This document shows, piece by piece, positions 1,845 through 27,211 of a stretch of 32,000 bases of DNA; within the stretch, counting starts at the first letter, position 1, and each line of letters opens with the position of its first letter. Below the pieces are notes generated by a model. The model ran no database searches. It was not told where the DNA came from and worked only from the letters and a program-made list of their open reading frames with translations. A program made the position numbers and the translations under genes. Origin of the DNA: Gemmata obscuriglobus. Its GTDB lineage: Bacteria; Planctomycetota; Planctomycetia; Gemmatales; Gemmataceae. Location: contig NZ_CP042911.1 of the NCBI RefSeq assembly GCF_008065095.1, positions 5,910,001 through 5,942,000 of the forward strand, read 5' to 3'.

Positions 1845-2261
1845 TCAGCCCCGCTTCTTCTCCTCGACCTTCACCACCTCGATCTTCGTGATGATGGCCT
1901 CGCCATCGGGGGCGAAGTCACGCTCCGCAGCCTTGATCCATTCGAGCCGCGCCTGGATGACGAGGTTGTAGAGCCGGCTAAGGTTCCGGCCCGTGACAAC
2001 TACCTTGAAGCGCTCGTCGTGGCTGACGAAATCCACTTCGAAGCGGGTCGGCTCGAACACGCTGCGGACCCCGAGGTACGAGAACTGGAACGACTCCCAC
2101 GGCTTCGCCGCGTGGCGGATCGTGAGCGCGGTGATCCACTTGTTCTTCGCCAGGGCCGCGCAAGGGCCGAGGTCGTCGTCGAGCTCGGCCGGCTCCGGCG
2201 GTGGGGCTTCCGCCTCGGCCTTATTGGGTGAGAAGAGGTGCTGAAACTTGTTACCGGCCAT
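1845..2261 (-). CDS. Hypothetical protein (138 aa) directly downstream of the relaxase and overlapping it by 11 nt
   Basis: Intact ORF whose start overlaps the relaxase stop (2251..2261). No family recognised. The opposite-strand ORFs here look like shadow frames. Confidence 0.5.
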   Translation of the reverse strand: MAGNKFQHLFSPNKAEAEAPPPEPAELDDDLGPCAALAKNKWITALTIRHAAKPWESFQFSYLGVRSVFEPTRFEVDFVSHDERFKVVVTGRNLSRLYNLVIQARLEWIKAAERDFAPDGEAIITKIEVVKVEEKKRG

Positions 2262-4910
2262 TTCCTAGCTCCCGTTGTTTGTCGCGCTCGTGTGTAGCAG
2301 TGACGTGGCGCGTGCGCAAGGCCTGGAACGCTTCTCGGGCGCGTTTCAGGATGGCGTACATGCGGTTGCGGGGTAGTGGGTTGAAGAGCTCGGTCGCTGA
2401 TTTTCGCGTGTCGGCCTTTTGGATCGCCTCGCGCAACTCAGGTGTGGGGACATCGGTGAAGATTGTGGCCTTGTCCCGGCCTCTGCTTACCGACACGTAG
2501 AACTGCTCAGCGCTGATGGCGGGAAGGGATTCTTGCCCCATGGCGATGAGCACCTTGTCCACGGTCTTCCCCTGGCTCGCATGGCTGGTGGTCACGTAAC
2601 CGTGGGTTAGGTGCGCGAAGTCGGGGGCCAGGGTCCAGTCGTTGTTGAGGACGATCCCACCCTTCTCGTCAAAACCCTTCACCTCGTACAGGGTACCATT
2701 GTCGAGCTTGTGCTTCGTGTCTGCTGATTTGCCAGGGGCTGTGATGCGGATGCGGTCGCCGGCTGCGAGCTTGATCGTGTTCTTGCCGTAGACGGAGAAG
2801 GTGCTCGCGGGGCCGAGGCGCATGCCGGGCTTGAAGTCGGCGATGGCGACGCGCTGGCCGGCCTTCTGTGTGCCGCCGTTGCGGTGGTACTGAACAACCT
2901 CGGTGCCCTCGTAGCGGCTCAGGTCTCCTCGCTCGGCTTCCGTCCAGTGCAGGGGCACCAGGGTTTGGATCTCGTGTTCTTCCTTGGCGACGATGCCGCG
3001 TTCCTGAAGGCGAAGGCGGATCGCGTCCGTGACCTCGGCGGCCTCGGCGTGGGTCGGGGCGATGGCCAGGACCCGGTCGGTGATGTCCTGGTCGGCGCGT
3101 TTGGTATCGATGGCCTCCATGTACTCGTCGACGAGAGGGGTATTGCCGGTTGTACTCTTCACCCAGCCGAGGTCGTTGAGCGTGTCGTAACCAGCGAGCA
3201 TCTTGCCTTTGGAGAGAGCCGTAACGGCTTCCTTGTACCGGCCCTTCTGGCGGCGAATGTCTGTTAGCTGCGCCACGGGAAGGCCTGCGAACTGTTCCAG
3301 GACGCGCAGAGTGGTGCCGCGCTCGATACTGCCGTGCTGTTGCTTGTCGCCCTGGAGTACCACGCGGGCGTTGAGCTTTTCAGCCAGGTCGAACACCTGG
3401 CGTGTCTGGCGCATGCCGAGAAGCCCGGCCTCGTCCACCCAGATCACGCCGTTCTTGGCTTTGTGCTGGAACTCCTGGTCGATCAGGAAGCGCGCTACGG
3501 TGTCGGCATTGGTGAAGCCCTCCTTGCGGAGAACGCCACGAGAGGCATCGGCAGAAGGAGCGAGAACAACCACAGGACGGTCGATGCCCGCGAAGGTGGT
3601 TTTCATCGTGTGGGTCTTACCGGTGCCAGCAGCACCACGGATCAGGATGACACGGTCGGGAGAGTTCCAGACATGGCGGGCGATGGATGCCTGCTCAGGG
3701 GAGAGTTTGCTGGAGACATGAATGTCCTTGTCAAATCCCGCTTGCTGTTCGGGGGAGAGTGTGGCAGTGTCGGAAATGAAGCCCTGCCGGAGCGCAGGCA
3801 TCGGCCGCTTCGATTCGTCGGGGCGGCCTTTTTGTTGTTGATCGAGCACTGCAGGTATGGCAACATCAGCTCCAGTATGACCGGGGTCACCACGCCCCGG
3901 TCCTTGCATACCCACCATGATGCGGGTGTTGTTCGGGGATTCGTCAAGGCGGGTCGCTGCCCCCATTGGGCGACACGTTCCCTTCCCATCCCGTGCGAAT
4001 GCGATTACTCGGGACTCTTCTGCGAGCACGCCCCTTGTCGTGGCTTCTCCGTTTCTGACCAGCAAGCCCTGACGCTTTGCTTCTTGTTGCACCTCTTCAG
4101 GAGTTACCCAGCCGATGCCGTGGCGGATGGCGGTTTCGTAGAGGCGTTTCTCGTTTACTACGCTTTGGCGTTCAAACATGTGGCCGATGGCGAAAGCGAC
4201 GGCGGCTTCTGTGGTGGTTGCACGGCTCAATTTCCCTTCGAGGGATGCGAGCTGCTGCTTTTCCTGGGGTGCGAGGCGGCTGGAGTAGTAGGGCTGCAGA
4301 TCGTCAGCGAGTTCCTTGGACTTCTGAAGGCGGGTGGTCGCACCGAGTTTGGCGCGTGACTCGGGGTTGGTGATGCCGAGCTTCTTGGCCACCATGTCGA
4401 TGTACTGTTTTCTGCGGGAGAACTTGTCCCTGAGTTCCTGGGAGATGCCGGTGATCTCAAAGGACTTACCTCTTCGTTCAATGCCGTAGCCCAGGTCTTT
4501 TACGTTTGCGGCGAGTCGGTTGGCATAGATGGCCTCGTAGTACGGGGCGTCTTTCTTGAGCTGGCCGACCTCGGCGGCCTTCCACTTTCCTTCATCCGCA
4601 TCGTAGGTCGCATTGAATACAAAGCAGTGCTTATGCAAATTCATGTCCGGCATGCTGTCATCGGCATTGATGCGTGTATCTCGGTGAGTTACGGCGTAGG
4701 CGACCATGTTGCCCGTTACACGGTTCTCGTTCGCGCCACCAACACGCACTCTCGCCTGCATTTCACGTTCGATGTAACCCAGGGTAAAAGCAACGGCTTC
4801 ATCGTGAGCTGCTTCAATCCGAGGGTCGCCGCCATTGCCAGGTCCAGCAAGCTCTCGGGCGATGCTGACTGATTTCATCGCGTTGAAAGTCATGTCGATG
4901 CCGACACGTC
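2251..4910 (-). pseudogene. MOBF (TrwC/TraI-type) conjugative relaxase with C-terminal RecD-like helicase; 3' portion of an IS-split gene
   Basis: Motifs seen: DMTFNAMKSVS; THRDTRINADDSMPDMNLHKHCFVFN (HxD...HxH histidine triad); Walker A GAAGTGKT; VIWVDEAGLLG; TTSHASQGKTVDKVLI. The first ~40 codons of track ORF 2251..5031 are read-through into the IS end (4911 onward), not relaxase sequence. Confidence 0.9.
4903..4910. repeat. Target-site duplication GACACGTC (left copy) of the IS66-family insertion
   Basis: The identical 8-mer occurs at 6508..6515, directly abutting both IS termini. Confidence 0.9.
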
Positions 4911-6507
4911 GTAACCGTTCACGGGGTGCGGGCCGTGCATTTTCCAGGCCTTTGTGACTCGATTCTGCGCGGGGTTGCCTCAAGAGCCGGTGTTCCGTAA
5001 TCGAACGGACGCGATGACATCTGTTCCTCAACCGCCGGAGCTACCGAGTGACCTGCCGCCAGCGGTGGTGGCGTACATTCGTGCGCTGGAAGCGACGGTT
5101 GCGCAGTTGCAGGCCACGGTCGCGGCTCTCCAGGTCACGGTGGCCGACCTTCAGACCCGGCTCAACCAGAATTCCAGCAACTCGTCGAAACCGCCCTCGT
5201 CGGATGGTCCGCAGGTGAAGCCGGCCCCGCCCAAGAGTCCCTCGGGGAAGCGGCGCGGCGGTCAATCGGGGCACCCCAAGGCCGAGCGCACCGTGCTGCC
5301 GCCCGACACGGTCCACACCCTCAAACCGGACACCTGCCGCGGGTGTGCGTGCCCACTCACCGGGGACGACCCGAACCCGTCGATTCACCAGGTGCATGAG
5401 ATCCCGGTCGTCCGGCCGCAGGTGACCGAGTATCGGTGCCATCGGCTCCGGTGCCCGCACTGCGGCGCCGTGACGACCGCACCGGTGCCCGCCGACGCGG
5501 CTCCCGGGTACGGTCCCCGGGTCCAGGCGGTGGCCGCCATGCTCACCGGTTCGTGCCGCCTGGGCAAGCGGGTGGTGAGCCAACTGTTCGACGACCTGTT
5601 CGGGTTGCCCATCCGTCCGGCCACGGTGTGCAAACTCCAGCACACGACCGCGGCGGCTCTGGCCCCGGTGGCCGAAGCGGCTCTCGCGTACACCCGCGGG
5701 CACCCGGCGAACGTGGACGAAACGGGCTGGACGCAAGGGCGCCAGCGGGCCTGGTTGTGGGTCGCGGTGAGCACCTCGGTGGTCGCATTCCTGATCCGCG
5801 CCACCCGGGGCCGGAGCGCGTTCGACGACCTGCGGGACGGGTCCGCCCAGGTCCACACGACCGATCGGTATCCGGTGTACACGCATCTGCCGGTGCATCG
5901 GCGCCAGGTGTGCTGGGCGCACCTGCGGCGGGACTTCCAGGCGATGATCGATCGGGGCAACGACGGATCCCCGATCGGGGCCGCCCTGTTGGCCTGTTCC
6001 GACGAACTGTTCGGGCACTGGTTCCGGGTGCGGGACGGGACGTTAGCCCGGTCCACGTTCGCTCGCGTGTACGCCCGCGCCGTGCGGGCCCGGTTCCGCA
6101 CGCACCTGGGGCACGGGGGCCGGTGCGGGTGCCCCAAGACCGGGGCCGTGTGCCGCGAGCTGTTGGCGGTGGAGCCGGCCCTGTGGACGTTCGCACGCGT
6201 GGGCGGGGTGGAACCGACCAACAACGCGGCCGAGCGGGCCCTGCGTCACGCCGTGTGCTGGCGCAAGACCAGCTACGGCACCGACTCCGAACGCGGTAGC
6301 CGGTTCGTGGAGCGGATCCTCACGGTCCTGGCCTCGTGTCGCCGGCAGGGCCGCAACGTGCTCGCATTCCTCACCGACGCCGTCACCGCACACCGTACCG
6401 GGGCAAAGCCACCAACACTGATCCCGGTCCCGGCTCAACAACCACCGATGATGAACCCAACTTTCGCTGGCTGTTGAGATACACCCGCATCAACTGTGAA
6501 CGCTTAC
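4911..6507 (+). mobile_element. IS66-family insertion sequence, single-ORF (ISBst12-like) type, 1597 bp
   Basis: Termini are GTAACCGTTCACGG (4911..) and the reverse complement of 6494..6507, GTAAGCGTTCACAG (12/14 identical, GTAA start typical of IS66). It is flanked by an 8-bp direct repeat and contains one transposase ORF. Confidence 0.9.
5014..6477 (+). CDS. IS66-family transposase (alternative upstream ATG at 4954)
   Basis: N-terminal leucine-zipper-like repeat VAQLQATVAALQVTVADLQTRL. NSSNSSKPPSSDG hallmark. Cys-rich segment CRGCACPL...CHRLRCPHCG. Long DDE-type core (DETGW...TDRY...WAHLRRDF). Confidence 0.9.
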   Translation: MTSVPQPPELPSDLPPAVVAYIRALEATVAQLQATVAALQVTVADLQTRLNQNSSNSSKPPSSDGPQVKPAPPKSPSGKRRGGQSGHPKAERTVLPPDTVHTLKPDTCRGCACPLTGDDPNPSIHQVHEIPVVRPQVTEYRCHRLRCPHCGAVTTAPVPADAAPGYGPRVQAVAAMLTGSCRLGKRVVSQLFDDLFGLPIRPATVCKLQHTTAAALAPVAEAALAYTRGHPANVDETGWTQGRQRAWLWVAVSTSVVAFLIRATRGRSAFDDLRDGSAQVHTTDRYPVYTHLPVHRRQVCWAHLRRDFQAMIDRGNDGSPIGAALLACSDELFGHWFRVRDGTLARSTFARVYARAVRARFRTHLGHGGRCGCPKTGAVCRELLAVEPALWTFARVGGVEPTNNAAERALRHAVCWRKTSYGTDSERGSRFVERILTVLASCRRQGRNVLAFLTDAVTAHRTGAKPPTLIPVPAQQPPMMNPTFAGC

Positions 6508-6780: not shown

Positions 6781-7107
6781 TTACTCGATGGGTTCGACTT
6801 TCCAGAAAGCCTTCGGTGGTGCGGACGATGGTGAGGCGGTTTCCGAGTGGTGCTCACCCAGTGGGTGCGTTTTCTTCATGTAGGCGACAATTTGCTCGAA
6901 CTCTGCGATGGTGCCGTTTCGCTTCAGCATGTTACACCGGAAGCAAATGACTGCTACGTTTCCTGTGATGTACCCAAAGTCGTTGTGAATACGGTCTATC
7001 GACGGCGAGCGAGGAGTGCGGCAGCCCTTGAAATCCAACTCATTGCCGCAGCACGCACATGAACAGGGCACGGAGTCAGGGATCACGTCAAGATAATCGG
7101 CATGCAC
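6781..7107 (-). CDS. HNH-type nuclease domain protein; annotated start (GTG 7107) probably not the true N-terminus
   Basis: CSCACCGNEL ... SIDRIHNDFGYITGNVAVICFRCNMLKRNG is a CxxC + (D/H)...N...CxxCN..K HNH-like core. The same frame stays open upstream to a TAA at about 7192..7194 and encodes KRYSTNPHHRLRRLVGSAKYRSKVIGVE, which looks like genuine protein. Confidence 0.6.
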   Translation of the reverse strand: MHADYLDVIPDSVPCSCACCGNELDFKGCRTPRSPSIDRIHNDFGYITGNVAVICFRCNMLKRNGTIAEFEQIVAYMKKTHPLGEHHSETASPSSAPPKAFWKVEPIE

Positions 7108-7754
7108 CTCGACCCCAATAACCTTGGAGCGGTACTTGGCGCTGCCAACGAGCCGCCGCAGACGATGATGAGGGTTTGTTGAATATCGCTTTTACTCCAA
7201 CCCCGTTCTTTCTCTGAGAAATCCGGAGATTCTGCACGTTTCCGCCGGGCATTCGCGTTGAACTTTTCTTTGTTCTCTTGGCGATAAATTTTGACCGCAG
7301 CTTGCACGGCCTCTTTGTTCTGTTGGTAGTAGCGTCTCTGACCGGCCTTCCGCTTCTCCACGCGTGGGACAGCCAGGGATATGATCCGCTCGCGATTGGC
7401 GTGGTAGTACAACCTGGAATACTCCCTGCGCTCAGTTTTCTGCCTGTCGCGAGCCTCCTGTTCTGTCAGACGAACCAGGTTGCTGGGCCGGTTGTTTGTC
7501 CGCCAGCCGTCCTCGTGGATTACTTGAGTCAGGCCCGGGGGGCCTGCCACGAAGGCTTCGGCCACGAGCACATGCACGTTGCAGTGGGATCGGTTGTCGT
7601 TTTTCGAGAGGCTGACAGTCAAGTACCCCCTGCGGCGAAGAAGTTGCTGTATCATGATTCCGGCGACAAGACCGCGAATCCTGCCTGTGTTCGAGATCTC
7701 GTATAGGCCTTCATAGCCAACTACGGGCTTCCATTGTTCAATTAAAAGTGTCAT
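7083..7754 (-). CDS. NUMOD4 + HNH_3 homing-endonuclease-like protein (copy 1)
   Basis: WKPVVGYEGLYEISNTGRIR is a NUMOD4 motif. HCNVHVLVAEAFV...VIHEDGWRTNNRPSNL is an HNH_3-type core. The C-terminal part has YYxxN-rich repeats. ATG 7754 has the SD GGAGG 5 nt upstream; the track start at 7760 is a GTG. Confidence 0.8.
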   Translation of the reverse strand: MTLLIEQWKPVVGYEGLYEISNTGRIRGLVAGIMIQQLLRRRGYLTVSLSKNDNRSHCNVHVLVAEAFVAGPPGLTQVIHEDGWRTNNRPSNLVRLTEQEARDRQKTERREYSRLYYHANRERIISLAVPRVEKRKAGQRRYYQQNKEAVQAAVKIYRQENKEKFNANARRKRAESPDFSEKERGWSKSDIQQTLIIVCGGSLAAPSTAPRLLGSRCMPIILT

Positions 7755-7760
7755 ATTCAC

Positions 7761-12031: not shown

Positions 12032-12358
12032 ATGAGCGATTTGCCGAACAGAGTCGTTCTCACCAGCGGGATGAAGCACGGCGAGGCGAAGGCGCTGCTT
12101 GCGGCTTTGTGGCCACGGATGCGTGTCATCATCTACCGCTCGACGGTGCAGCACTACAAGGAGGGGTACCCCACGGCAGAGGAACTGGAGCTCGGTGACG
12201 ACGAGGAGATGTGCCGCACACCGGGGCGGGAGGCCGTTTTACATGGGGAAATGACCGGACAGGACCTGCACCATGCGATCATGAAGGCGTTCAGCCTGGA
12301 CACAGAGCTCGATGTCGGGATTCACGGGGTGTGGAGGAAGAAGCTGAGCGAGGCGTGA
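12032..12358 (+). CDS. Hypothetical protein (108 aa)
   Basis: ATG 12032 is preceded by GGAGGGG. It is divergent from the sigma-factor gene. No family recognised. Confidence 0.45.
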   Translation: MSDLPNRVVLTSGMKHGEAKALLAALWPRMRVIIYRSTVQHYKEGYPTAEELELGDDEEMCRTPGREAVLHGEMTGQDLHHAIMKAFSLDTELDVGIHGVWRKKLSEA

Positions 12359-12384
12359 ACTCGGAGGGGGGCATTCGGCCTGGA

Positions 12385-12425
12385 GCAACCCGAACCCTGA
12401 CACCGGGTTGCACGTCTTCCTTACT
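12385..12425 (+). terminator. Putative intrinsic terminator
   Basis: Stem GCAACCCG (12385..12392) pairs with CGGGTTGC (12404..12411), followed by a pyrimidine/T-rich stretch CTTCCTT. Confidence 0.35.
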
Positions 12426-12433
12426 GTTAGAAT
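12425..12433 (+). promoter_or_regulatory. Possible extended -10 element TGTTAGAAT upstream of the MTase fusion gene
   Basis: TGnTAnAAT-like sequence about 50 nt upstream of the TTG start at 12481. Planctomycete promoter rules are poorly known. Confidence 0.2.
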
Positions 12434-12480
12434 CGACGGGGTGACTCCGTGCGTGGTGCATGTGACGTTGCGCCGGCCGG

Positions 12481-14001
12481 TTGGGAGGGCTGCGCTTGAT
12501 CCGACCGAACTCGCTATACCACGCAGATAGCCTGACGCTCCTGGAGCGGATCGACGGGGGTGTAGCCCGAACCATCTACTTGGACCCACCGTGGTTCAGC
12601 CAGCCCTCCATCGGGACGCGGGGTTCCGGCTCCCGTGTCGCGAACGGGTTGCGCGACTACCTCGATAACTTTGCCCGCGTACTCCAACAGTGCCATCGCA
12701 TCCTTGCGGATGACGGGAGCATCATCGTCCACGCCGAGCCGTCCCTCGGACAGAAATTCGCTTTGCTCCTTGAGCAGATCTTCCGCGACAACCATGTCGA
12801 CGACTACATCCTTCCCCAATTCGGGATGAATCAGGGAGTCAGGCACGCTGCACTCCTGCACTACGGCAAGAGCCAAAACACATTACTGAACGACGTCTGC
12901 CGACCGGTCGAGGAAAGCGAACATGTACGGAACCCGGATGACGACCCGAGGGGCGCGTGGCGGGCTGTTGATCTGACTACGCGGATGGATCGCCCGATGC
13001 TCCAGTTCGAGTGGCGAGGGCATCAGCCGCCCATCGGCCGATCATGGCGATACCAACTCAGCGAACTGGAACGTCTGGCTGACGAGGGCAGAATTCACTT
13101 CTCGGCTGGAGGTAGCCCCCCAAGGCTGAAGGCGTACCAATCCGAACGGCGGAGCGTCCCGGTCGGCACCATCTGGGACGACCTCCAACCTCTTCGCGGT
13201 GGGTCTGCGGAGAGGGTCGGCTTTCCATCTCAGCAGCCAGTTGCTCTGATCGAGCGGGTCATACTGCGCACCTCGAACCCGGACGATCTGGTTATCGATC
13301 CGTACTGCGGCTCGGGCACCTCGCTGGTCGCGGCGCACCGCCAGGACCGCTGCTGGATCGGGTGCGACTCGTCGCCGGAAGCGATCGAGTTGACGAGGGC
13401 GCGGCTGTCCACGGCAGGGATTGCAGAAGGGTGGCACGACCGCTCGGCTCCCGACCTGATGGCCATTGAGGCGAAGCCGATCTTCCTCCGCCGTGTCGTG
13501 ACGATGGTCGAGGATCTAAACGCGGCCGAGGTGCTTATCGCTGAAGGCGAGAGCGAATTCGTCGAGTGGAAGGTCTCTGCTTACTGGAACGCCTTCAACA
13601 GCCAGAAGGACGAGAAGAACAAAGAGAAGCTCATCCGCTCTGTCGCCGCGTTCCTGAACAGCCAGGACGGCGGCACGATCCTGATCGGGGTCGCCAACGA
13701 CGGCACGCTTCCCGGCTTAATCGACGATTACAAGGCAACTAATTCCCAGCGACCGGGGCGTGACAGCTACGAGCTTTGGATGCGGCAGACCCTGCGTGAC
13801 AGGCTCGGCAAGGAGTTCGATCCGTTCGTGAAGATCGCTTTTGACGAAGTTCGTGGGCAGGACGTGTGCATCATTCGGGTTGCAGGGGGCAATCGGCCGG
13901 CTTGCAATTTAGACAAGCTCCCAATCCGCCGCGGCAACCAAACTGTGGACCTGCCGCTGAAGGAAGCGATAGAGTATAGCCGGATACGGTGGCCGTTGTG
14001 A
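12481..14001 (+). CDS. Beta-class (N6_N4_Mtase type) DNA methyltransferase fused to a C-terminal AlbA_2 / Schlafen-like domain
   Basis: Motif IV DPPW is at 12583..12594, near the N-terminus. Motif I DLVIDPYCGSGTSLVAAH lies about 260 aa later, which is the beta-class order. The C-terminal ~160 aa (EGESEFVEWKVS...IRSVAAFLNSQDGGTILIGVANDGTLPGL...VCIIRVAGGNRP...PIRRGNQT) matches the AlbA_2 pattern. Start is TTG at 12481 or 12496. Confidence 0.85.
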   Translation: MGGLRLIRPNSLYHADSLTLLERIDGGVARTIYLDPPWFSQPSIGTRGSGSRVANGLRDYLDNFARVLQQCHRILADDGSIIVHAEPSLGQKFALLLEQIFRDNHVDDYILPQFGMNQGVRHAALLHYGKSQNTLLNDVCRPVEESEHVRNPDDDPRGAWRAVDLTTRMDRPMLQFEWRGHQPPIGRSWRYQLSELERLADEGRIHFSAGGSPPRLKAYQSERRSVPVGTIWDDLQPLRGGSAERVGFPSQQPVALIERVILRTSNPDDLVIDPYCGSGTSLVAAHRQDRCWIGCDSSPEAIELTRARLSTAGIAEGWHDRSAPDLMAIEAKPIFLRRVVTMVEDLNAAEVLIAEGESEFVEWKVSAYWNAFNSQKDEKNKEKLIRSVAAFLNSQDGGTILIGVANDGTLPGLIDDYKATNSQRPGRDSYELWMRQTLRDRLGKEFDPFVKIAFDEVRGQDVCIIRVAGGNRPACNLDKLPIRRGNQTVDLPLKEAIEYSRIRWPL

Positions 14002-19924: not shown

Positions 19925-20446
19925 TCAGAGAACGTGTTTCCAAGTCAGACCGAGCCAAAGACTCCGAACAGTGCCTCCGGAGACGCCAAATCGCGTAGCA
20001 AGCTGATCTGAGGTCGCTGTGCCTTTCAGGGAACGCAGTTCCCGAACTTGCTGATGCGTCAACTTCGGGATGCCATTAGAACGAAGGCCGTTCGCCACGG
20101 CGTGGAGAAAATTCTCGTAGTGAGTCGCGTACTCAAGATTATTCGGCGCGTTATTTGTTTTATCGCCGTCTTTGTGGTTGATTGTAGCCCCGTTGGGGCG
20201 TGGGCCAATAAATGCAGCGCAGACGGCGCCGTGCGCAGTAAGGTTGTACACCTCGCCTTCGCAGGTCAGCCTGAAACACAAATAGCCCTTGTGGTTTGTG
20301 GCAGGTTTTAGCACCCTTCCTGCTGGGCACCCACCGGCGGCTTTGATCCTCCGGATTCTCCCTAGGTTTGACACCTGATGTGTTGACTCAAGGCCTGGTA
20401 GTGATCTCCATTCTTCTGTTGCGAATTTCGCATCCTTCTGTATCAT
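19925..20446 (-). CDS. NUMOD4 + HNH_3 homing-endonuclease-like protein with C-terminal HTH (copy 2, 173 aa)
   Basis: EEWRSLPGLESTHQVSNLGRIRR (NUMOD4). LTAHGAVCAAFIGPRPNGATINHKDGDKTNNAPNNLE (HNH_3). LTHQQVRELRSL...LATRFGVSGGTVRSL (HTH). ATG 20446 has GGAGG 4 nt upstream. Confidence 0.8.
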   Translation of the reverse strand: MIQKDAKFATEEWRSLPGLESTHQVSNLGRIRRIKAAGGCPAGRVLKPATNHKGYLCFRLTCEGEVYNLTAHGAVCAAFIGPRPNGATINHKDGDKTNNAPNNLEYATHYENFLHAVANGLRSNGIPKLTHQQVRELRSLKGTATSDQLATRFGVSGGTVRSLWLGLTWKHVL

Positions 20447-20513
20447 TTCACCTCCATCGTAAAGCAATGGAGAGAATAACCCTTGTGTGAAAACGCGCAA
20501 GGGTTTTCTTTTG
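20447..20513 (-). promoter_or_regulatory. Conserved 5' leader of HNH copy 2 (SD-sequestering hairpin plus upstream hairpin)
   Basis: CTCCAT (20452..20457) pairs with ATGGAG (20467..20472) with a 9-nt loop, so the SD lies in the 3' arm on the minus-strand RNA. A hairpin pairs 20478..20485 with 20498..20505 and is followed on the plus strand by TTTTCTTTTG. The 3' half is nearly identical to 7806..7826. Confidence 0.5.
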
Positions 20514-23144: not shown

Positions 23145-24221
23145 ATGAGCGAAGCTGTCTCGATCAGTGCCTCGCGGTCTGGGCTGATCATCCGTGAGAA
23201 GGAACCGGCGAATCTGGAGTTCCCGTTCGCTTCGCTCACCCCCGTCACCCCAACCAACGAGTTCTTCGTCCGCACGCACTTTCCCATTCCGGCGATCTCT
23301 GCGAAGGACTGGACGCTGACCGTCGACGGGGAGGTCGAGCAGGAGCTGGTCCTGACGTATGACGACCTGCTCCGTTTGCCCTCGGTAACCGCTCCCGTTC
23401 TGCTGGAATGCGCGGGCAACGGCCGGGCGCAGCTCGTTCCGAAGGCCAAGGGGCTGTTGTGGGACACCGGAGCCGTTGGCACCGCGGAATGGACCGGGGT
23501 GCCCCTCTCGGCCGTGCTGGAAAAGGCCGGGGTGAAGAAGGGTGCCGTCGACGTCATCCTCCAGGGAGCGGACAAAGGGGAGGTCGACGATCCAAAGTCT
23601 CCGGGAGTGGTTCACTTCGAGCGGAGCCTGCCACTGGCGAAGGCGATGCGGCCCGAGGTGTTCCTGGCTTACAAGATGAACGGGAAGGATCTGACGCCGG
23701 ACCACGGTTTTCCGGTACGCGCCATCGTCGGCGGGTGGTACGGGATGGCCTCGGTGAAGTGGCTGACGCACGTGACCGTTACAGCGGCACCGTTCGAGGG
23801 GTTCTGGCAGTCACTGGAGTACGCTTACTGGAAGCGTGAGCGTGAGCGGCCCACGCTGACCGCCGTCACCGAGGTTCAGGTAAAAGCTCAGATCGCCCGC
23901 CCGGCGCTGTCTGAAGCCGTTCCTGGAGGGAAGCCGTACCGGGTGTTCGGGGCAGCGTGGAGCGGTGAGTCGGACGTGGTCAGGGTGGAGGTCAGCACGG
24001 ACGGGAAGACGTGGTCGGAGGCCACGCTGCTGGGTGAATCGGTGCCGTTTGCGTGGCGGCTGTGGGCGTTCCAGTGGAACGTTCCCGAAGCCACCGGGCA
24101 GTACAGGGTGATGGCCCGGGCCACCGACACGAAGGGTCACACACAGCCAGTGAAGCACGACTCGGACCGACGGACCTACATGATCAACTTTGCTTTCGCT
24201 GTTGAGGTCGAGGTGGTGTGA
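23145..24221 (+). CDS. Sulfite-oxidase-family molybdopterin oxidoreductase (358 aa)
   Basis: FFVRTHFPIP, VLLECAGNGRA (Moco-ligand Cys context), FLAYKMNGKDLTPDHGFPVRAIVGGWYGMASVKWL, then an Ig-like dimerisation domain. Confidence 0.85.
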   Translation: MSEAVSISASRSGLIIREKEPANLEFPFASLTPVTPTNEFFVRTHFPIPAISAKDWTLTVDGEVEQELVLTYDDLLRLPSVTAPVLLECAGNGRAQLVPKAKGLLWDTGAVGTAEWTGVPLSAVLEKAGVKKGAVDVILQGADKGEVDDPKSPGVVHFERSLPLAKAMRPEVFLAYKMNGKDLTPDHGFPVRAIVGGWYGMASVKWLTHVTVTAAPFEGFWQSLEYAYWKRERERPTLTAVTEVQVKAQIARPALSEAVPGGKPYRVFGAAWSGESDVVRVEVSTDGKTWSEATLLGESVPFAWRLWAFQWNVPEATGQYRVMARATDTKGHTQPVKHDSDRRTYMINFAFAVEVEVV

Positions 24222-24283
24222 TCGGAGGGCACTACAATCGCCCCTGGCGGTCCACGCCGGACGGCCACTTCTCGGAGGCGACC

Positions 24284-24667
24284 ATGAAGGCGATCATCTC
24301 TGCAGTGCTGGTTCTCGGGTTGGGCAGTTTCGCTCGGGCGGAGGACAAAGCGAACCCGGTGGGGACGTGGAAGTGCGAGTATTCCATTGGGGATCAGAAG
24401 CGGACGGCCGAGCTGGTGGTCACGAAGGACGGGGACAAGTTAGCCGGGGTGATGAACTGGCCGGATCAGAAGGACGTGAAGGTCAAGGATCTGAAGTTCA
24501 AGGACGGGGAGCTCTCGTTCTCTGCGGTACGGAAGTTCATGGATAACGAGATCGCCATCGACTACAAGCTGAAGGTTGAAGGGGACAAGATCAAGGGGAA
24601 GGCTGCGACCGAGTTCGGTGGTGAGAAGCGTGAGTTCGACATCGAAGGGAAGCGGGAGAAGAAGTAA
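24284..24667 (+). CDS. Small secreted protein (127 aa) with signal peptide
   Basis: MKAIISAVLVLGLGSFARAEDK signal peptide, followed by a Lys-rich beta-type sequence. Confidence 0.6.
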   Translation: MKAIISAVLVLGLGSFARAEDKANPVGTWKCEYSIGDQKRTAELVVTKDGDKLAGVMNWPDQKDVKVKDLKFKDGELSFSAVRKFMDNEIAIDYKLKVEGDKIKGKAATEFGGEKREFDIEGKREKK

Positions 24668-24967
24668 GGGCGATCCCCTGCGGGGCCGGGCTTTCCACAG
24701 CTCCGCGTTCGCTTCGGCCGCTCCGCGGCTGCCTCCGGCACCATTCCAATCCCTATCGCAAGTACAGGGGACGCCGTCCCCTCTCCGCTTCAACCCCGCC
24801 TTCGGCCCTTCGGCTCCGCTCCTGGAATCTTCCCCGGCCTGCGGCCTCCTCGCGAAACAAGATTCCCTCCGCTCCGGGGGTGTTCCGCTCCCACCCCTGC
24901 GTTCGCCACGTGGCAGAAGGTATCGCCGCTTCGCTGCGACACCTTCAGAACCACAAAGGAGCACATC

Positions 24968-25327
24968 ATGACCATTTCCCCGCCACTCACCTACTGCCAG
25001 CTCATTACCGAAGCCAACCGCCTCGCACTCCGCATCCGGAGGCTGCACGAAGCACTCGAAGCCGACCCGCTTCTGGAAGGCCCGAACGGCGAAGACAGCG
25101 AGTTCGATCAAATGGAACTCGTCGGACTTGAACAGCAGCTTTACGGCATCGGGTCGGTTCTCGAGCTTCTCGGACACACTCCGAACGCTTTCGTGAACCC
25201 CGAAGCAATGGACGCACTCCGCGGAGTGGTCAGGAAGGCAGCGGGTCTTGAGCAAGAGCCGTGGGCGGCGGTGATTCTGGATCGGGTCGAGCCGGCTCCG
25301 CAGTTCAACGAAGTGATTGCGAAGTAA
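24968..25327 (+). CDS. Hypothetical protein (119 aa), first gene of the Dcm module
   Basis: ATG is preceded by AAAGGAG. No family recognised. Confidence 0.55.
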   Translation: MTISPPLTYCQLITEANRLALRIRRLHEALEADPLLEGPNGEDSEFDQMELVGLEQQLYGIGSVLELLGHTPNAFVNPEAMDALRGVVRKAAGLEQEPWAAVILDRVEPAPQFNEVIAK

Positions 25328-25412
25328 CTCGCACCGTGCTACGAATGCGGGGCGACGTTATGAGGACGCCGCCCCTTTACAACCGCTGACTACATGGAAG
25401 GAAACCAGCGAT

Positions 25413-25745
25413 ATGACCGACATCAAAGACACAACTGCGACCAAAAAGCAAGCGATCAAACCTACAGCGGAAGCCGAAGCCTTGGCCGATGCGATCTTGC
25501 GTGCCGCCGGGAGTGGGCTGCACTTCTACAGCATGGCGAAGACGCGAGACGCGATTCTCATCGCTGCTCAGCAAGGGCTGGACGCTGGCCGAGCGAGATT
25601 GCTGGCGGCGCTCGAAATCCTAGCCGAACAGGCTGATGAAGATTGTCCGGCGGAATATCGCAGCGATCATTTCAGAGAGGCTCTCAATGAGGCCTTCGCC
25701 GCTATCGAAGAAGTCGCAAACGAATCCTCGGCGAGGCCTGCGTGA
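25413..25745 (+). CDS. Hypothetical protein (110 aa)
   Basis: Start at MTDIKDTT (ATG 25413). Its stop overlaps the MTase GTG start as GTGA. Confidence 0.5.
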   Translation: MTDIKDTTATKKQAIKPTAEAEALADAILRAAGSGLHFYSMAKTRDAILIAAQQGLDAGRARLLAALEILAEQADEDCPAEYRSDHFREALNEAFAAIEEVANESSARPA

Positions 25746-27211
25746 GGTACGGTTCAGTCTGCTCTGGAATAGAAGCAGCAACTGCGGCTTGGCATCCTCT
25801 CGGCTGGCAGCCCATCTTCTTCAGCGAAATCGACAACTTTCCTCGTGCCGTTCTGGCACACCATTACCCCCACACGCCATGCCACGGCGACTTCACCACT
25901 ATCGGAAAGGACACCTATGACCCAATTGACCTTCTTGTCGGCGGAACCCCCTGTCAATCCTTCTCAGTCGCAGGCCTTCGCAAAGGACTTGCTGACGAGC
26001 GAGGCAACCTCACACTTGAGTTTGTTCGGCTGGCTCAGAGGCTTCAGCCCCGCTGGCTGGTTTGGGAAAATGTTCCCGGTGTCCTGTCACAAGACCGAGG
26101 ACGGGCGTTTGGCTCCTTCCTCGGAGGGCTGGCGGAACTCGGGTATGGGTTCGCCTACCGGGTTCTTGACGCTCAACATTTCGGAGTGCCTCAGCGACGC
26201 AGGCGTGTGTTCGTTGTCGGATATCTTGGAGACTGGCGACCTGCCGCAACGGTACTTTTTGAGCGCGAAGGCTTGCTCAGGGATATTACGCCGCGCAGGG
26301 AAGCGGGGAAAAGCCCTACCGGAACCCTTAGCGCGAGCGCTGGAAGAAGTCGCGGAGCGGGAACCGATCACGCCATGATCGCACCTCCTGTTGGCTTCGA
26401 GACCGGGCCGCAGGGTGGTGGTTTCAGTGACCTTGCCCCAACGCTCGATACCCGGTGCAAGGACGGCCCAATCCGCAACCAGCTTGGCATGGGGGTTGTC
26501 CATCCGCAACACGGAGACGCGATTGCTAGCGCGTTGCGAAGACGGAATCAGAGCCGAGGCGTAGACAGCGACTGCACCGACACCCTGATTGCCCATTCCT
26601 TGCGAGGCGAAGGCTTCGACGCGAGCGAGGACGGGACTGGGCGAGGAACACCTCTGGCTCCAGTCGCCTTCGACACCGCTCAACTCACCAGCAAGTCCAA
26701 CCGAAGTAACCCCCAGCAGGGTGACCCATGCCACACACTGCACAGCGGGAACACGCATCACGTAGCCATTCCGATCAACATGCAGGCCGCCGCGAAGAAC
26801 GGCAAGAAGTCGCCCAACGGTTATGGGGTCGGCGAACCGGGTGATCCGGCCCCAACGCTCGGGGCAAACGATCAGCATGCCGTCGCATGCTTCAAGGGCG
26901 GCCAAGGTTCGCAGGCTCGAAGCGTCGGTTATTCTGAGCATTTGGCACCCACACTACCGAGCGCCGATAGCGGCAGCAACCGCACCCCAACCTTGATGCA
27001 GGGCATGTCTGTCCGTCGCCTCACTCCCCGCGAATGCGAGCGACTTCAGGGATTTCCCGATGACTACACGCTCGTGCCGTACAGGGGCAAGCCAGCGGCA
27101 GACGGCCCACGTTATAAGGCTCTCGGCAATTCGATGGCTGTCCCCGTAATGCGCTGGATTGGCGAACGTATCCAGATGGTTGAGCGGCTTCGGCCGGAAG
27201 AAGCGGAATAA
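25742..27211 (+). CDS. DNA (cytosine-5)-methyltransferase, phage type, with a long variable region
   Basis: Motif I GSVCSGIEAA. Motif IV GGTPCQSFS. Motif VI WENVPG. Motif VIII QRRRRVFVVG. About 250 aa of variable region. Motif IX RRLTPRECERLQGFPDDYT. Motif X GNSMAVPVMRWIG. Confidence 0.9.
   Translation: MRYGSVCSGIEAATAAWHPLGWQPIFFSEIDNFPRAVLAHHYPHTPCHGDFTTIGKDTYDPIDLLVGGTPCQSFSVAGLRKGLADERGNLTLEFVRLAQRLQPRWLVWENVPGVLSQDRGRAFGSFLGGLAELGYGFAYRVLDAQHFGVPQRRRRVFVVGYLGDWRPAATVLFEREGLLRDITPRREAGKSPTGTLSASAGRSRGAGTDHAMIAPPVGFETGPQGGGFSDLAPTLDTRCKDGPIRNQLGMGVVHPQHGDAIASALRRRNQSRGVDSDCTDTLIAHSLRGEGFDASEDGTGRGTPLAPVAFDTAQLTSKSNRSNPQQGDPCHTLHSGNTHHVAIPINMQAAAKNGKKSPNGYGVGEPGDPAPTLGANDQHAVACFKGGQGSQARSVGYSEHLAPTLPSADSGSNRTPTLMQGMSVRRLTPRECERLQGFPDDYTLVPYRGKPAADGPRYKALGNSMAVPVMRWIGERIQMVERLRPEEAE

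What the first reader, a model, noticed from the sequence alone, without database searches (positions are those of the whole stretch)
12032..14001. Orphan DNA methyltransferase fused to an AlbA_2 / Schlafen-like domain
One 506-aa ORF joins two modules.
- The first is a complete beta-class amino-methyltransferase. Motif IV is DPPW (W instead of the usual Y) at 12583..12594, and the SAM motif DLVIDPYCGSGTS lies about 260 aa later.
- The second is a C-terminal domain of about 160 aa with the AlbA_2 pattern (EFVEWKVS ... AAFLNSQDGGTILIGVANDGTLPGL ... IIRVAGGNRP ... IRRGNQT).

No restriction endonuclease ORF is adjacent. The neighbours are a 108-aa unknown protein upstream (with its own terminator) and a convergent phage-like operon starting 19 nt downstream. 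AlbA_2/Schlafen-type modules are recurrent in conflict systems as nucleic-acid sensing or binding domains. I do not know of a characterised system in which one is covalently fused to an MTase without a nuclease. It could be a modification-dependent sensor, a phage-borne anti-restriction MTase with a targeting domain, or an epigenetic regulator.
Basis: partly seen in the sequence, partly recalled or inferred. Interest (0 to 1): 0.72.

Follow-up and report, generated by a model that had tools for sequence, protein, structure and literature searches.

The report
DNA methyltransferase fused to Schlafen nuclease
One Gemmata obscuriglobus gene on a horizontally acquired island joins a complete DNA methyltransferase to a Schlafen-type nuclease domain with an intact active site; it most likely belongs to the recently described bacterial Schlafen anti-phage proteins, but with a sensor type (a methyltransferase) that nobody has tested.

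Summary
ORF 12481..14001 (+, 506 aa) carries PF01555 (aa 31-305, E=7e-29) and PF04326 SLFN_AlbA_2 (aa 357-489, E=2e-11). The finding's start (12032) belongs to an unrelated upstream 108-aa ORF, and its "terminator" was not confirmed.

The C-terminal domain is more than a binding module. It is a single-lobe prokaryotic Schlafen nuclease domain. Its catalytic Ex4ExK motif is invariant in all ten aligned fusion homologues, down to about 30% overall identity.

The methyltransferase half is beta-class and resembles Type III Mod. Its SAM-binding and DPPW motifs are conserved.

Close relatives of this Schlafen domain are fused again and again to restriction-modification modules (HsdS, HsdM, beta-class methyltransferases). 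The nearest non-Schlafen relatives of the methyltransferase carry a retron-type Toprim nuclease in the same C-terminal position. That suggests a conserved methyltransferase scaffold with exchangeable effectors.

The gene moves as a single cassette: 70%-identical homologues share no neighbours with it. Of seven contexts examined, only one is next to a restriction enzyme, and that enzyme has its own Mod.

My best reading is a methyltransferase-controlled Schlafen RNase acting as a defence effector (confidence about 0.5). Methyltransferase-Schlafen fusions were noted by bioinformatics in 2026 (Weickert et al.), but none has been characterised. I rate it a new variant of a known kind, of moderate interest.

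The parts
12481..14001 (+). Methyltransferase-Schlafen fusion gene, 506 aa (TTG start; an alternative TTG at 12496 gives 501 aa). The stop codon is at 13999..14001.
   Evidence: ORF list. Exact match to G. obscuriglobus QEG30226.1 and AWM37061.1. Residues 9-33 are conserved in homologues (L12, L20, R23 and Y33 invariant), so the 473-aa RefSeq model that starts at L34 is probably too short.
12571..13395 (+). Beta-class (N6/N4) DNA methyltransferase domain, aa 31-305. Motif order is IV, then a target-recognition-like insert, then X and I.
   Evidence: PF01555 E=6.8e-29. PADLOC MTase_II PDLC03354 E=5e-36, plus several MTase_III models. Foldseek: EcoP15I Mod 4zcf 8e-14, H. pylori Mod 6k0w, M.MboIIA, CcrM, M.RsrI.
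12583..12594 (+). Catalytic motif IV, DPPW (D35-W38).
   Evidence: Read. DPPW occurs in 10 of 14 fusion-family proteins, DPPL in 2, DLPW in 1, and none is recognisable in 1.
13285..13323 (+). SAM-binding motif I, DLVIDPYCGSGTS (D269-S281).
   Evidence: Read. D273, P274, C276, G277, G279 and T280 are invariant in alignment A1.
13537..13998 (+). C-terminal single-lobe Schlafen (AlbA_2) nuclease domain, aa 353-506.
   Evidence: PF04326 E=1.6e-11. The profile of fusion C-termini hits the C-lobe of rat Slfn13 (5yd0, E=2.9e-13) and of SLFN11, 12, 14 and 5. The AF2 domain model (pLDDT 90.5, pTM 0.87) matches the DIP2311 AlbA_2 domain (TMq 0.63), the SLFN11/14/5/13 N-domains and the SAMD9 tRNase domain.
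13549..13572 (+). Schlafen active-site motif ESEFVEWK, which is Ex4ExK (E357, E362, K364).
   Evidence: Read. All three residues are invariant in the 10 fusions and in the 83 closest Schlafen-domain relatives. The motif is defined as catalytic in PMC13056530 and aligns with the ES..EFK of Slfn13.
13699..13701 (+). D407 in GVANDG, the candidate third acidic active-site residue.
   Evidence: Nearly invariant in A1; an acidic residue is always present at position 406 or 407. The correspondence to Slfn13 D248 is only approximate in the HMM alignment.

Best explanation
The gene encodes a self-contained, horizontally mobile sensor-effector protein. It belongs to the branch of prokaryotic Schlafen proteins that is tethered to restriction-modification modules.

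**Shown**
- The N-terminal 310 aa or so are a beta-class DNA methyltransferase resembling Type III Mod, with intact SAM-binding and catalytic motifs.
- The C-terminal 155 aa or so are a single-lobe Schlafen nuclease domain with an intact Ex4ExK/Asp site.
- Both halves are under purifying selection in homologues down to about 30% overall identity.
- The gene travels alone between unrelated mobile-element and defence contexts.
- Sister methyltransferases carry a different nuclease (Toprim) in the same position.

**Inferred**
- The methyltransferase module methylates its target sequence in the host DNA.
- Like other beta-class methyltransferases, it works as a dimer, and through dimerisation or oligomerisation it controls the Schlafen domain.
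- A single-lobe Schlafen domain has to pair up to form the two-lobed active architecture. Once active, it cleaves tRNA (or another RNA), arresting translation and so aborting phage or mobile-element propagation.

**Trigger**
My preferred trigger is assembly of the methyltransferase on invading DNA that lacks the cognate methyl mark. The alternative is a guard mechanism, in which the nuclease is released when a phage anti-restriction protein or SAM depletion hits the methyltransferase.

**Confidence**
General model about 0.5. Preferred trigger about 0.2 absolute.
For: 1. Domain identity and intact motifs.
2. Three independently characterised prokaryotic Schlafen effectors (RorSlfn5, CbCash, SLFN-pAgo) all use Ex4(E/D)xK to cleave tRNA. 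All three are switched on by oligomerisation that pairs single-lobe domains (PMC13056530; PMC13462974; bioRxiv 10.64898/2026.05.29.728809).
3. A profile search with the fusion C-termini found 590 representatives at E<1e-30. Of 83 top hits scanned, 15 carry Methylase_S, 14 N6_Mtase (HsdM), 3 N6_N4_Mtase and 2 Eco57I. The Pfam-negative class of about 545 aa has an HsdS-like recognition domain (EcoKI HsdS 2y7c, E=9.5e-14). This Schlafen subclade is therefore systematically attached to restriction-modification modules for DNA recognition and methylation.
4. Effector swapping. P0012 is 37% identical in the methyltransferase half, and its C-terminus matches the Toprim effector of retron type I-C (PADLOC PDLC02965, E=8e-31). 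P0005 (39% identical) has the same module.
5. Contexts. P0010 and P0005 each lie 12 to 44 nt downstream of a complete Type III Mod+Res. P0011 and P0012 lie in dense defence islands. P0004 lies in an integrative element.
6. The 70%-identical homologues share no neighbouring genes with the window, so the gene is an autonomous cassette. The window itself is a low-GC island carrying a TrwC relaxase and an IS66 element.
Against: - There are no experimental data for any methyltransferase-Schlafen fusion.
- No recognised defence gene lies next to the gene in this window; its neighbours have no annotation.
- Ex4ExK is conserved across most AlbA_2 proteins, including ones long annotated as regulators, so conservation alone does not prove nuclease use here.
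- A covalently fused methyltransferase-effector that fires on unmethylated sites would face an autoimmunity problem, both on arrival in a new host and after replication.
- Motif IV deviates in 3 of 14 family members (DPPL twice, DLPW once) and is unrecognisable in one, so methylation may not be essential throughout the family.
- Methyltransferase relatives in temperate Streptomyces phages and in a plasmid carry other, unidentified C-terminal modules. Those could simply be DNA-binding accessories.
Confidence: 0.5

Rival explanations
1. Ordinary solitary (orphan) DNA methyltransferase carried by a mobile element. The AlbA_2 domain would be only an accessory nucleic-acid-binding module that improves DNA binding or targeting. 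The function would be methylation alone: protecting the element against host restriction, or epigenetic regulation.
For: - The methyltransferase motifs are intact, and there is no partner restriction enzyme.
- The gene sits on a low-GC island with a relaxase.
- Methyltransferase relatives are common on plasmids (304 records) and in phages (127 records).
- CcrM-type beta-class methyltransferases are known to use an extra C-terminal DNA-binding domain (own knowledge; CcrM 6pbd is among the structural hits).
- SAMD9 and SLFN5 AlbA_2-like domains bind DNA (7ksp and 7cux).
Against: - The catalytic E-x4-E-x-K triad is strictly invariant across 10 fusions and 83 relatives. A pure binding role would not need that.
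- Sister methyltransferases carry a Toprim nuclease effector in the same position.
- Every prokaryotic Schlafen domain tested so far is a nuclease effector.
- No fusion was found in phage or plasmid collections.
Confidence: 0.25
2. A guard of the PrrC type. The methyltransferase module would act as a decoy, or as a subunit docked to a restriction-modification complex. It would keep the Schlafen RNase latent until a phage anti-restriction factor (a DNA mimic or a SAM-degrading enzyme) binds or starves it, which unleashes tRNA cleavage. This is a trigger variant of the best explanation.
For: - The fusion P0010 and the Toprim sibling P0005 are appended directly after complete Type III Mod+Res operons.
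- Most close Schlafen relatives are fused to HsdS-like or HsdM-like subunits that would plug into Type I complexes.
- There is precedent in PrrC-EcoprrI and PARIS (cited in PMC13056530; own knowledge).
- Motif IV is degenerate in some members.
Against: - In Gemmata and its three closest relatives the gene is solitary, with no restriction-modification partner within reach.
- The methyltransferase catalytic motifs are conserved in most members, which a pure decoy would not require.
Confidence: 0.2
3. A single-chain restriction-modification enzyme (Type IIG-like). The Schlafen domain would be the DNA endonuclease that cuts unmethylated DNA recognised by the methyltransferase half.
For: - A methyltransferase and a nuclease-fold domain sit in one polypeptide, with no separate restriction enzyme.
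- Some Schlafen and SAMD9 AlbA_2 domains bind DNA.
Against: - All characterised prokaryotic and mammalian Schlafen nucleases cut RNA, chiefly tRNA.
- Where a Type III Res nuclease is already present (L003), a second DNase would be redundant.
- The sibling effector is the retron-type Toprim, which also belongs to abortive-infection systems.
Confidence: 0.07

Closest known systems
Prokaryotic Schlafen defence proteins (pSlfn: RorSlfn5, EcoSlfn7; Perez Taboada et al., Nat Microbiol 2026, PMC13056530)
   Same: Same PF04326 Schlafen domain with the catalytic Ex4(E/D)xK motif. Same single-polypeptide sensor-plus-effector logic. Also carried on mobile or defence regions.
   Different: The characterised members have the Schlafen domain fused to Ig-like or DUF262 sensors. 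Here the partner is an enzymatically complete DNA methyltransferase, and the Schlafen domain is C-terminal. A methyltransferase partner is not named in the main text of that paper; its table of 55 architectures was not available to me.
Methyltransferase-Schlafen 'Cluster 3' in Weickert, Liu & Strecker, Nat Commun 2026 (PMC13462974)
   Same: [quoted passage not shown] This is the same general architecture, and it is also uncharacterised.
   Different: The class of methyltransferase in that cluster is not stated in the text I could read. In my own survey HsdM-type (gamma-class) fusions outnumber beta-class ones, 14 to 3 of 83. That survey selected defence-associated homologues, whereas the Gemmata gene is solitary.
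CbCash (Csx15-Schlafen) and SLFN-pAgo (RzAgo)
   Same: Single-lobe Schlafen tRNase effector whose activity is gated by oligomerisation of the fused sensor.
   Different: The sensors differ: a cA4-binding Rossmann domain in one, and a guide-loaded Argonaute plus GHKL ATPase in the other. Here there is no ATPase and no link to cyclic nucleotides.
Type III restriction-modification Mod subunits (EcoP15I Mod, 4zcf)
   Same: Best structural match. Same beta-class motif order. The conserved RSWRY...LK.Y...WDD block precedes motif X. More distant relatives (about 780 aa) and two family members sit next to ResIII genes.
   Different: No res gene is present in this window. The C-terminal part is replaced by a Schlafen domain. 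Where a Type III system is adjacent, it already has its own Mod.
PrrC-EcoprrI anticodon nuclease and PARIS (AriA/AriB)
   Same: A tRNA-cleaving abortive-infection effector that is functionally coupled to restriction-modification or to sensing of anti-restriction.
   Different: PrrC is a separate ABC-ATPase-plus-nuclease protein embedded in a Type I locus, and AriB is a Toprim nuclease. Neither is covalently fused to a methyltransferase, and neither uses a Schlafen fold.
Retron type I-C RT-Toprim effector domain
   Same: The same Toprim effector module occupies the Schlafen position in the sister methyltransferases P0012 and P0005. This points to a shared scaffold-plus-effector design.
   Different: It is a different nuclease fold, and it is not present in the window protein.

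Membership tests
Beta-class N6/N4 DNA methyltransferases (PF01555) | Profile match above the curated threshold | tested here: met
   PF01555 E=6.8e-29, 101.8 bits against a cutoff of 26.7.
Beta-class N6/N4 DNA methyltransferases (PF01555) | Circularly permuted motif order: motif IV (D/S)PP(Y/F/W) N-terminal, motif I (FxGxG-type) C-terminal | tested here: met
   DPPW at aa 35-38 and DPYCGSGT at aa 273-280.
Beta-class N6/N4 DNA methyltransferases (PF01555) | Fold similarity to solved beta-class enzymes | tested here: met
   Foldseek E of 1e-13 to 1e-12 against EcoP15I Mod, MboIIA, CcrM, BceJIV and RsrI. The core is well modelled; the region aa 143-251 is poorly modelled.
Beta-class N6/N4 DNA methyltransferases (PF01555) | DNA methylation activity and target base or sequence | not testable with these tools
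   This needs a SMRT or Nanopore methylome, or an in vitro assay.
Type III restriction-modification system | Mod gene paired with an adjacent res gene (ResIII helicase-nuclease) | tested here: not met
   The larger window ORFs scanned (all ORFs of about 200 aa or more that look like genes) show no ResIII or restriction enzyme. Only 1 of 7 fusion contexts is next to Res, and that Res has its own Mod.
Type II restriction-modification pair, or a remnant of one | Cognate restriction endonuclease next to the methyltransferase, here or in homologues | tested here: not met
   Window. Homologue loci L001, L002, L165, L166 and the P0004 contig.
Prokaryotic Schlafen nucleases (pSlfn) | PF04326 / Schlafen C-lobe-like domain | tested here: met
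   PF04326 E=1.6e-11. The profile hits Slfn13, SLFN11, 12, 14 and 5. The domain model, pLDDT 90.5, matches AlbA_2, SLFN and SAMD9 folds.
Prokaryotic Schlafen nucleases (pSlfn) | Catalytic Ex4(E/D)xK motif | tested here: met
   E357-x4-E362-x-K364, invariant in 10 fusions and 83 relatives. The motif is defined in PMC13056530.
Prokaryotic Schlafen nucleases (pSlfn) | Fusion to a putative sensor domain | tested here: met
   Fused to a complete methyltransferase domain.
Prokaryotic Schlafen nucleases (pSlfn) | Location near known defence genes (69.6% of pSlfn lie within 10 kb of one) | tested here: inconclusive
   In the window there are only mobile-element genes and a second solitary C5 methyltransferase 11.7 kb away. 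The homologues P0010, P0011 and P0012 sit in clear defence islands.
Prokaryotic Schlafen nucleases (pSlfn) | tRNA cleavage and anti-phage activity | not testable with these tools
   This needs biochemistry and phage or plasmid challenge experiments.
PrrC/RloC anticodon nucleases | ABC-ATPase N-domain plus a PrrC-type nuclease, embedded in a Type I hsd locus | tested here: not met
   No ATPase domain and no hsd genes. The resemblance is functional only.

The most novel reading that the evidence does not exclude
This would be a one-protein, epigenetically gated abortive-infection system: a restriction-modification logic in which the 'restriction' arm is tRNA cleavage rather than DNA cleavage. 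The methyltransferase marks self DNA. When it assembles on unmethylated foreign DNA, two Schlafen lobes pair up and shut down translation. More broadly, a methyltransferase scaffold derived from Type III Mod would serve as a general DNA-modification sensor that can be wired to interchangeable RNase or DNase effectors (Schlafen, Toprim, possibly HEPN).
Probability: 0.2. Interest if true: 0.8.

Novelty: new variant of a known kind. Interest (0 to 1): 0.5.

Why it matters
Bacterial Schlafen proteins were shown only in 2025-2026 to be tRNA-cutting antiviral effectors, homologous to human SLFN11/13/14. So far each has been studied with a protein, cyclic-nucleotide or guide-RNA sensor.

A Schlafen domain covalently tied to an active DNA methyltransferase would link epigenetic marking of self and non-self directly to translation shutdown. 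It would also explain why this Schlafen subclade keeps being fused to restriction-modification subunits.

The Gemmata protein is a compact, single-gene test case of 506 aa. Clean point mutants are available for each half: D35/W38 for the methyltransferase, and E357/E362 for the nuclease.

If instead the domain only aids DNA binding, the finding is an ordinary orphan methyltransferase of a mobile element.

Tried and rejected
- **Upstream 108-aa ORF (12032..12358) as a partner, controller or antitoxin: rejected.** It has no Pfam, NCBIfam, PADLOC or PHROG hit. It is annotated only as a hypothetical protein in G. obscuriglobus. tblastn finds it at none of the homologue loci.
- **Conserved neighbourhood or operon: rejected.** None of the 14 neighbouring window proteins recurs next to the 70%-identical homologues.
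- **Terminator after the 108-aa ORF: not found**.
- **Phage origin: no support.** No Schlafen fusion appears among 80 IMG/VR methyltransferase relatives. A scan with the Schlafen profile gave only a stand-alone Schlafen and one weak hit. INPHARED phages gave no match covering at least 80% of the query. PLSDB gave one such match, and it lacks Schlafen by HMM.
- **Searches that gave little.**
  - The word-indexed search with the C-terminal domain alone returned 3 hits.
  - The metagenome scan failed with the alignment and gave 1 unrelated locus with the single sequence.
  - P0009 (Prosthecobacter) was not on record.
- **Supplementary tables of the two key papers were not held**. I could not check whether this exact architecture is among the 55 pSlfn types or in Cluster 3.
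- **HEPN assignment for the C-terminus of the Microcoleus sister protein (L005): unverified.** It has an Rx4H motif. PADLOC Csx1/Csm6 reaches only E=0.008, and Pfam finds nothing.
- **PD-(D/E)xK or Mrr-like assignment for the C-terminus of Streptomyces phage OzzyJ gp49: unverified.** It has no PDB hit and no similarity to an Mrr protein.
- **The 'DpnIIB' label in GenBank is similarity-based.** It says nothing about GATC specificity.
Full report
**What is in the sequence**

The window comes from Gemmata obscuriglobus. The ORF at 12481..14001 (+) translates to 506 aa from a TTG start. It is identical to AWM37061.1 (506 aa) and, from the next TTG at 12496, to QEG30226.1 (501 aa, 'Modification methylase DpnIIB'). 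RefSeq's 473-aa model begins at L34. That start would remove a segment whose residues L12, L20, R23 and Y33 are invariant in homologues, so the longer starts are the better ones.

The finding's start coordinate (12032) belongs to a separate upstream 108-aa ORF (12032..12358). That ORF has no hit in Pfam, NCBIfam, PADLOC or PHROGs and is annotated only as a hypothetical protein of this species.

**Checking the observation**

Pfam finds PF01555 N6_N4_Mtase at aa 31-305 (E=6.8e-29) and PF04326 SLFN_AlbA_2 at aa 357-489 (E=1.6e-11). Both are well above their gathering scores. DPPW lies at 12583..12594, and DLVIDPYCGSGTS at 13285..13323. The two motifs are about 238 aa apart, not about 260.

The 'own terminator' of the upstream ORF was not reproduced. 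The downstream minus-strand ORFs have only weak PHROG matches to families of unknown function.

No restriction enzyme is adjacent. The nearest nuclease-like ORFs are two NUMOD4/HNH_3 homing-type paralogues at 7083..7760 and 19925..20500.

**The methyltransferase half**

PADLOC's best model is a Type II methyltransferase (PDLC03354, E=5e-36), with several Type III Mod models also matching over long stretches. An AlphaFold2 model has mean pLDDT 70.6; the catalytic core is good and the region aa 143-251 is poor. Its best structural matches are EcoP15I Mod (4zcf, E=8e-14) and an H. pylori Mod (6k0w), followed by M.MboIIA, CcrM, M.BceJIV and M.RsrI.

The region between motif VIII and motif X is not hypervariable. 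It holds a conserved block (FEWRG..PP.GRSWRY...GRI...LK.Y...G.VWDD) that stays 37-46% identical even in 30%-identical fusion homologues. That is higher than the N-terminal core.

More distant relatives form a large family of about 780 aa, and one of them sits next to a ResIII gene. The methyltransferase is therefore beta-class and Mod-like. Motif I is invariant. Motif IV is DPPW in 10 of 14 family members, DPPL in two, DLPW in one, and unrecognisable in one.

**The C-terminal half**

A profile built from the ten fusion C-termini hits the nuclease C-lobe of rat Slfn13 (5yd0, E=2.9e-13) and of SLFN11, 12, 14 and 5. The alignment places the fusions' E-x4-E-x-K on the ES..EFK of the Schlafens. The domain modelled alone has pLDDT 90.5 and pTM 0.87. 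It matches the AlbA_2 domain of DIP2311 (TMq 0.63), the SLFN N-domains and the SAMD9 tRNase domain.

E357, E362 and K364 are invariant in the ten fusions and in the 83 closest Schlafen-domain relatives. An acidic residue is always present at position 406 or 407.

The literature defines Ex4(E/D)xK as the catalytic motif of prokaryotic Schlafens. Three such proteins have been shown to cleave tRNA and to defend against phage:
- RorSlfn5 and EcoSlfn7 (PMC13056530)
- CbCash (PMC13462974)
- SLFN-pAgo (bioRxiv 10.64898/2026.05.29.728809)

For CbCash and SLFN-pAgo, the structural work shows that activation comes from oligomerisation that aligns or pairs single-lobe Schlafen domains. For RorSlfn5, PMC13462974 reports oligomerisation on sensing the phage protein.

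**Relatives and architecture**

Ten protein clusters with both domains were found in the first search: P0001-P0004 at 69-100% identity and P0006-P0011 at 31-42%. The exhaustive profile search added four more 50%-identity representatives (P0126, P0135, P0193, P0247). Pairwise identities of the two halves are correlated across the fusions (r=0.85). That fits co-inheritance rather than frequent re-assortment within this set.

The same profile search shows that this Schlafen subclade is large: 590 representatives at E<1e-30. Its members are fused mostly C-terminally to restriction-modification modules. Of 83 top hits, 15 carry Methylase_S, 14 carry N6_Mtase/HsdM, 3 carry N6_N4_Mtase and 2 carry Eco57I. 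The abundant Pfam-negative class of about 545 aa has an HsdS-like recognition domain (EcoKI HsdS, E=9.5e-14) behind a degenerate gamma-methyltransferase-like segment.

**Effector swapping**

The nearest relatives of the methyltransferase half that lack Schlafen still have a C-terminal module of 250-280 aa.
- In P0012 (37% identity) this module matches the Toprim effector domain of retron type I-C RT-Toprim proteins (PADLOC PDLC02965, E=8e-31, covering profile positions 319-526 of 529).
- P0005 (39% identity) has the same module.
- A Microcoleus sister protein has an all-helical C-terminus with an Rx4H motif. Its assignment as HEPN remains unverified.

So one methyltransferase scaffold carries alternative nuclease effectors. 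This argues that the Schlafen domain is an effector rather than a DNA-binding accessory.

**Genomic contexts**

The window is a low-GC island: 0.56-0.64 from about 2 kb onward, against 0.70 at the left end. It carries a TrwC relaxase, an IS66 transposase, two HNH homing-type genes and a second solitary (C5) methyltransferase.

None of 14 neighbouring proteins recurs beside the 70%-identical homologues. Those homologues lie in unrelated settings:
- P0002: reverse transcriptase, ThiF, HNH and PD-(D/E)xK genes
- P0003: a protein kinase
- P0004: integrases, a PIN toxin, ParB and TraG

More distant fusions sit in clear defence contexts. P0011 lies among NmeDI-like, HerA, GmrSD, HEPN and a DEAD/MZB helicase. 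P0010 lies 44 nt downstream of the res gene of a complete Type III system (MTase_III E=1.6e-214, REase_III E=1.6e-213) that also embeds a HEC-01 pair.

The Toprim sibling P0005 occupies the same position, 12 nt after another complete Type III Mod+Res. P0012 is in a dense defence island.

Only one of seven fusion contexts is therefore next to a restriction enzyme, and that enzyme has its own Mod.

No fusion was found in IMG/VR, INPHARED phages or PLSDB plasmids, although plain relatives of the methyltransferase are common there.

**Mechanism**

What is shown: an intact methyltransferase and an intact Schlafen active site in one polypeptide, both conserved; the gene is mobile as a single cassette; the Schlafen subclade is tied to restriction-modification modules; and the effector position is exchangeable.

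What is inferred, from the behaviour of characterised Schlafen effectors and from the dimeric nature of beta-class methyltransferases (established knowledge; dimeric Mod and CcrM structures are among the hits):
- The methyltransferase module methylates host DNA.
- It governs pairing of the Schlafen lobes.
- Once paired, the Schlafen lobes cleave tRNA or other RNA and halt translation.

The trigger is unresolved. I favour assembly on unmethylated invading DNA, because the catalytic motifs are mostly conserved and because the Gemmata-clade genes are solitary. A PrrC-like guard of restriction-modification function is about as plausible for the Type III-linked members.

The main rival is a plain orphan methyltransferase with an accessory binding domain (about 0.25). 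A Type IIG-like DNase is unlikely (about 0.07).

**Novelty**

Prokaryotic Schlafens are a known kind, though a very recent one. Methyltransferase fusions are mentioned once, as 'Cluster 3' of a defence-linked Schlafen tree, without any characterisation (PMC13462974). Exchange of Schlafen domains with restriction-modification proteins is noted in the SLFN-pAgo preprint.

I found no description of three things: the beta-class, Mod-like, solitary version seen here; the alternation of Schlafen and Toprim on one methyltransferase scaffold; and the position appended to Type III systems.

I therefore rate it a new variant of a known kind, with interest 0.5.

Noticed in passing
window 2000-32000: Almost the whole window has lower GC (0.56-0.64) than its left edge (0.70 at 1-2000, where a PAS/HisKA/receiver hybrid kinase sits). 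This suggests a large horizontally acquired island. No tRNA gene is present, and no integrase turned up among the larger ORFs scanned.
   Followed up: partly
window 2251-6477: A TrwC-type relaxase/helicase lies at 2251..5031 (-). Its Pfam match starts only at profile position 70, and its 5' end overlaps an IS66-family transposase at 4954..6477 (+). The relaxase may be truncated or interrupted by the IS element.
   Followed up: no
window 7083-7760 (-) and 19925-20500 (-): Two paralogous NUMOD4 + HNH_3 homing-endonuclease-like genes flank the central part of the island.
   Followed up: no
window 25742-27211 (+): A second solitary DNA methyltransferase (C5 cytosine, PF00145, E=4.5e-58, matched in two stretches, 489 aa). 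It is preceded by three small same-strand ORFs (24218-25745) with no Pfam hit. No restriction enzyme was recognised beside it.
   Followed up: no
window 12580 (RefSeq start of WP_162542131.1): RefSeq's 473-aa model starts at L34, immediately before DPPW. It drops about 30 N-terminal residues that are conserved in homologues, so the start is probably mis-called.
   Followed up: yes
proteins P0134-P0203 (alignment A4): The commonest architecture among close relatives of this Schlafen domain is a protein of about 545 aa. It has a degenerate gamma-methyltransferase-like N-terminal part (DxPxG instead of NPPF/Y), one HsdS-like recognition domain, and a C-terminal Schlafen domain. Pfam mostly fails to annotate the N-terminal two thirds.
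   Followed up: partly
L168 10001-11737, L173 10001-11812 (P0005, P0012): Sister methyltransferases carry a retron type I-C-like Toprim effector domain at the C-terminus (motifs EGKTD ... DRD). One lies directly after a complete Type III Mod+Res, and the other lies in a defence island with a SNF2 helicase, HEPN_Toprim_N, Mrr-like and HNH genes.
   Followed up: partly
L003 363-11497: One operon holds a Type III Mod (1027 aa), an unknown 475-aa protein, a HEC-01A/B pair (AAA_21 + DUF4276) embedded between mod and res, a Type III Res (1077 aa), and then the methyltransferase-Schlafen fusion. This is a multi-layer arrangement.
   Followed up: partly
L176 2686-4320 (Streptomyces phage OzzyJ gp49) and L177 5992-7623 (Microbacterium plasmid): These are methyltransferase relatives of about 544 aa (about 30% identity) with an unidentified 160-aa C-terminal module (GDRGIDG...VSVKG, reminiscent of PD-(D/E)xK/Mrr but unverified). 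In the temperate phage the gene lies close to the serine integrase (one small ORF between them).
   Followed up: partly
L170 34-2065 (IMG/VR contig): A stand-alone 199-aa Schlafen-domain ORF overlaps the end of a 483-aa Cys-rich ORF that resembles DUF1998/MZB proteins.
   Followed up: no
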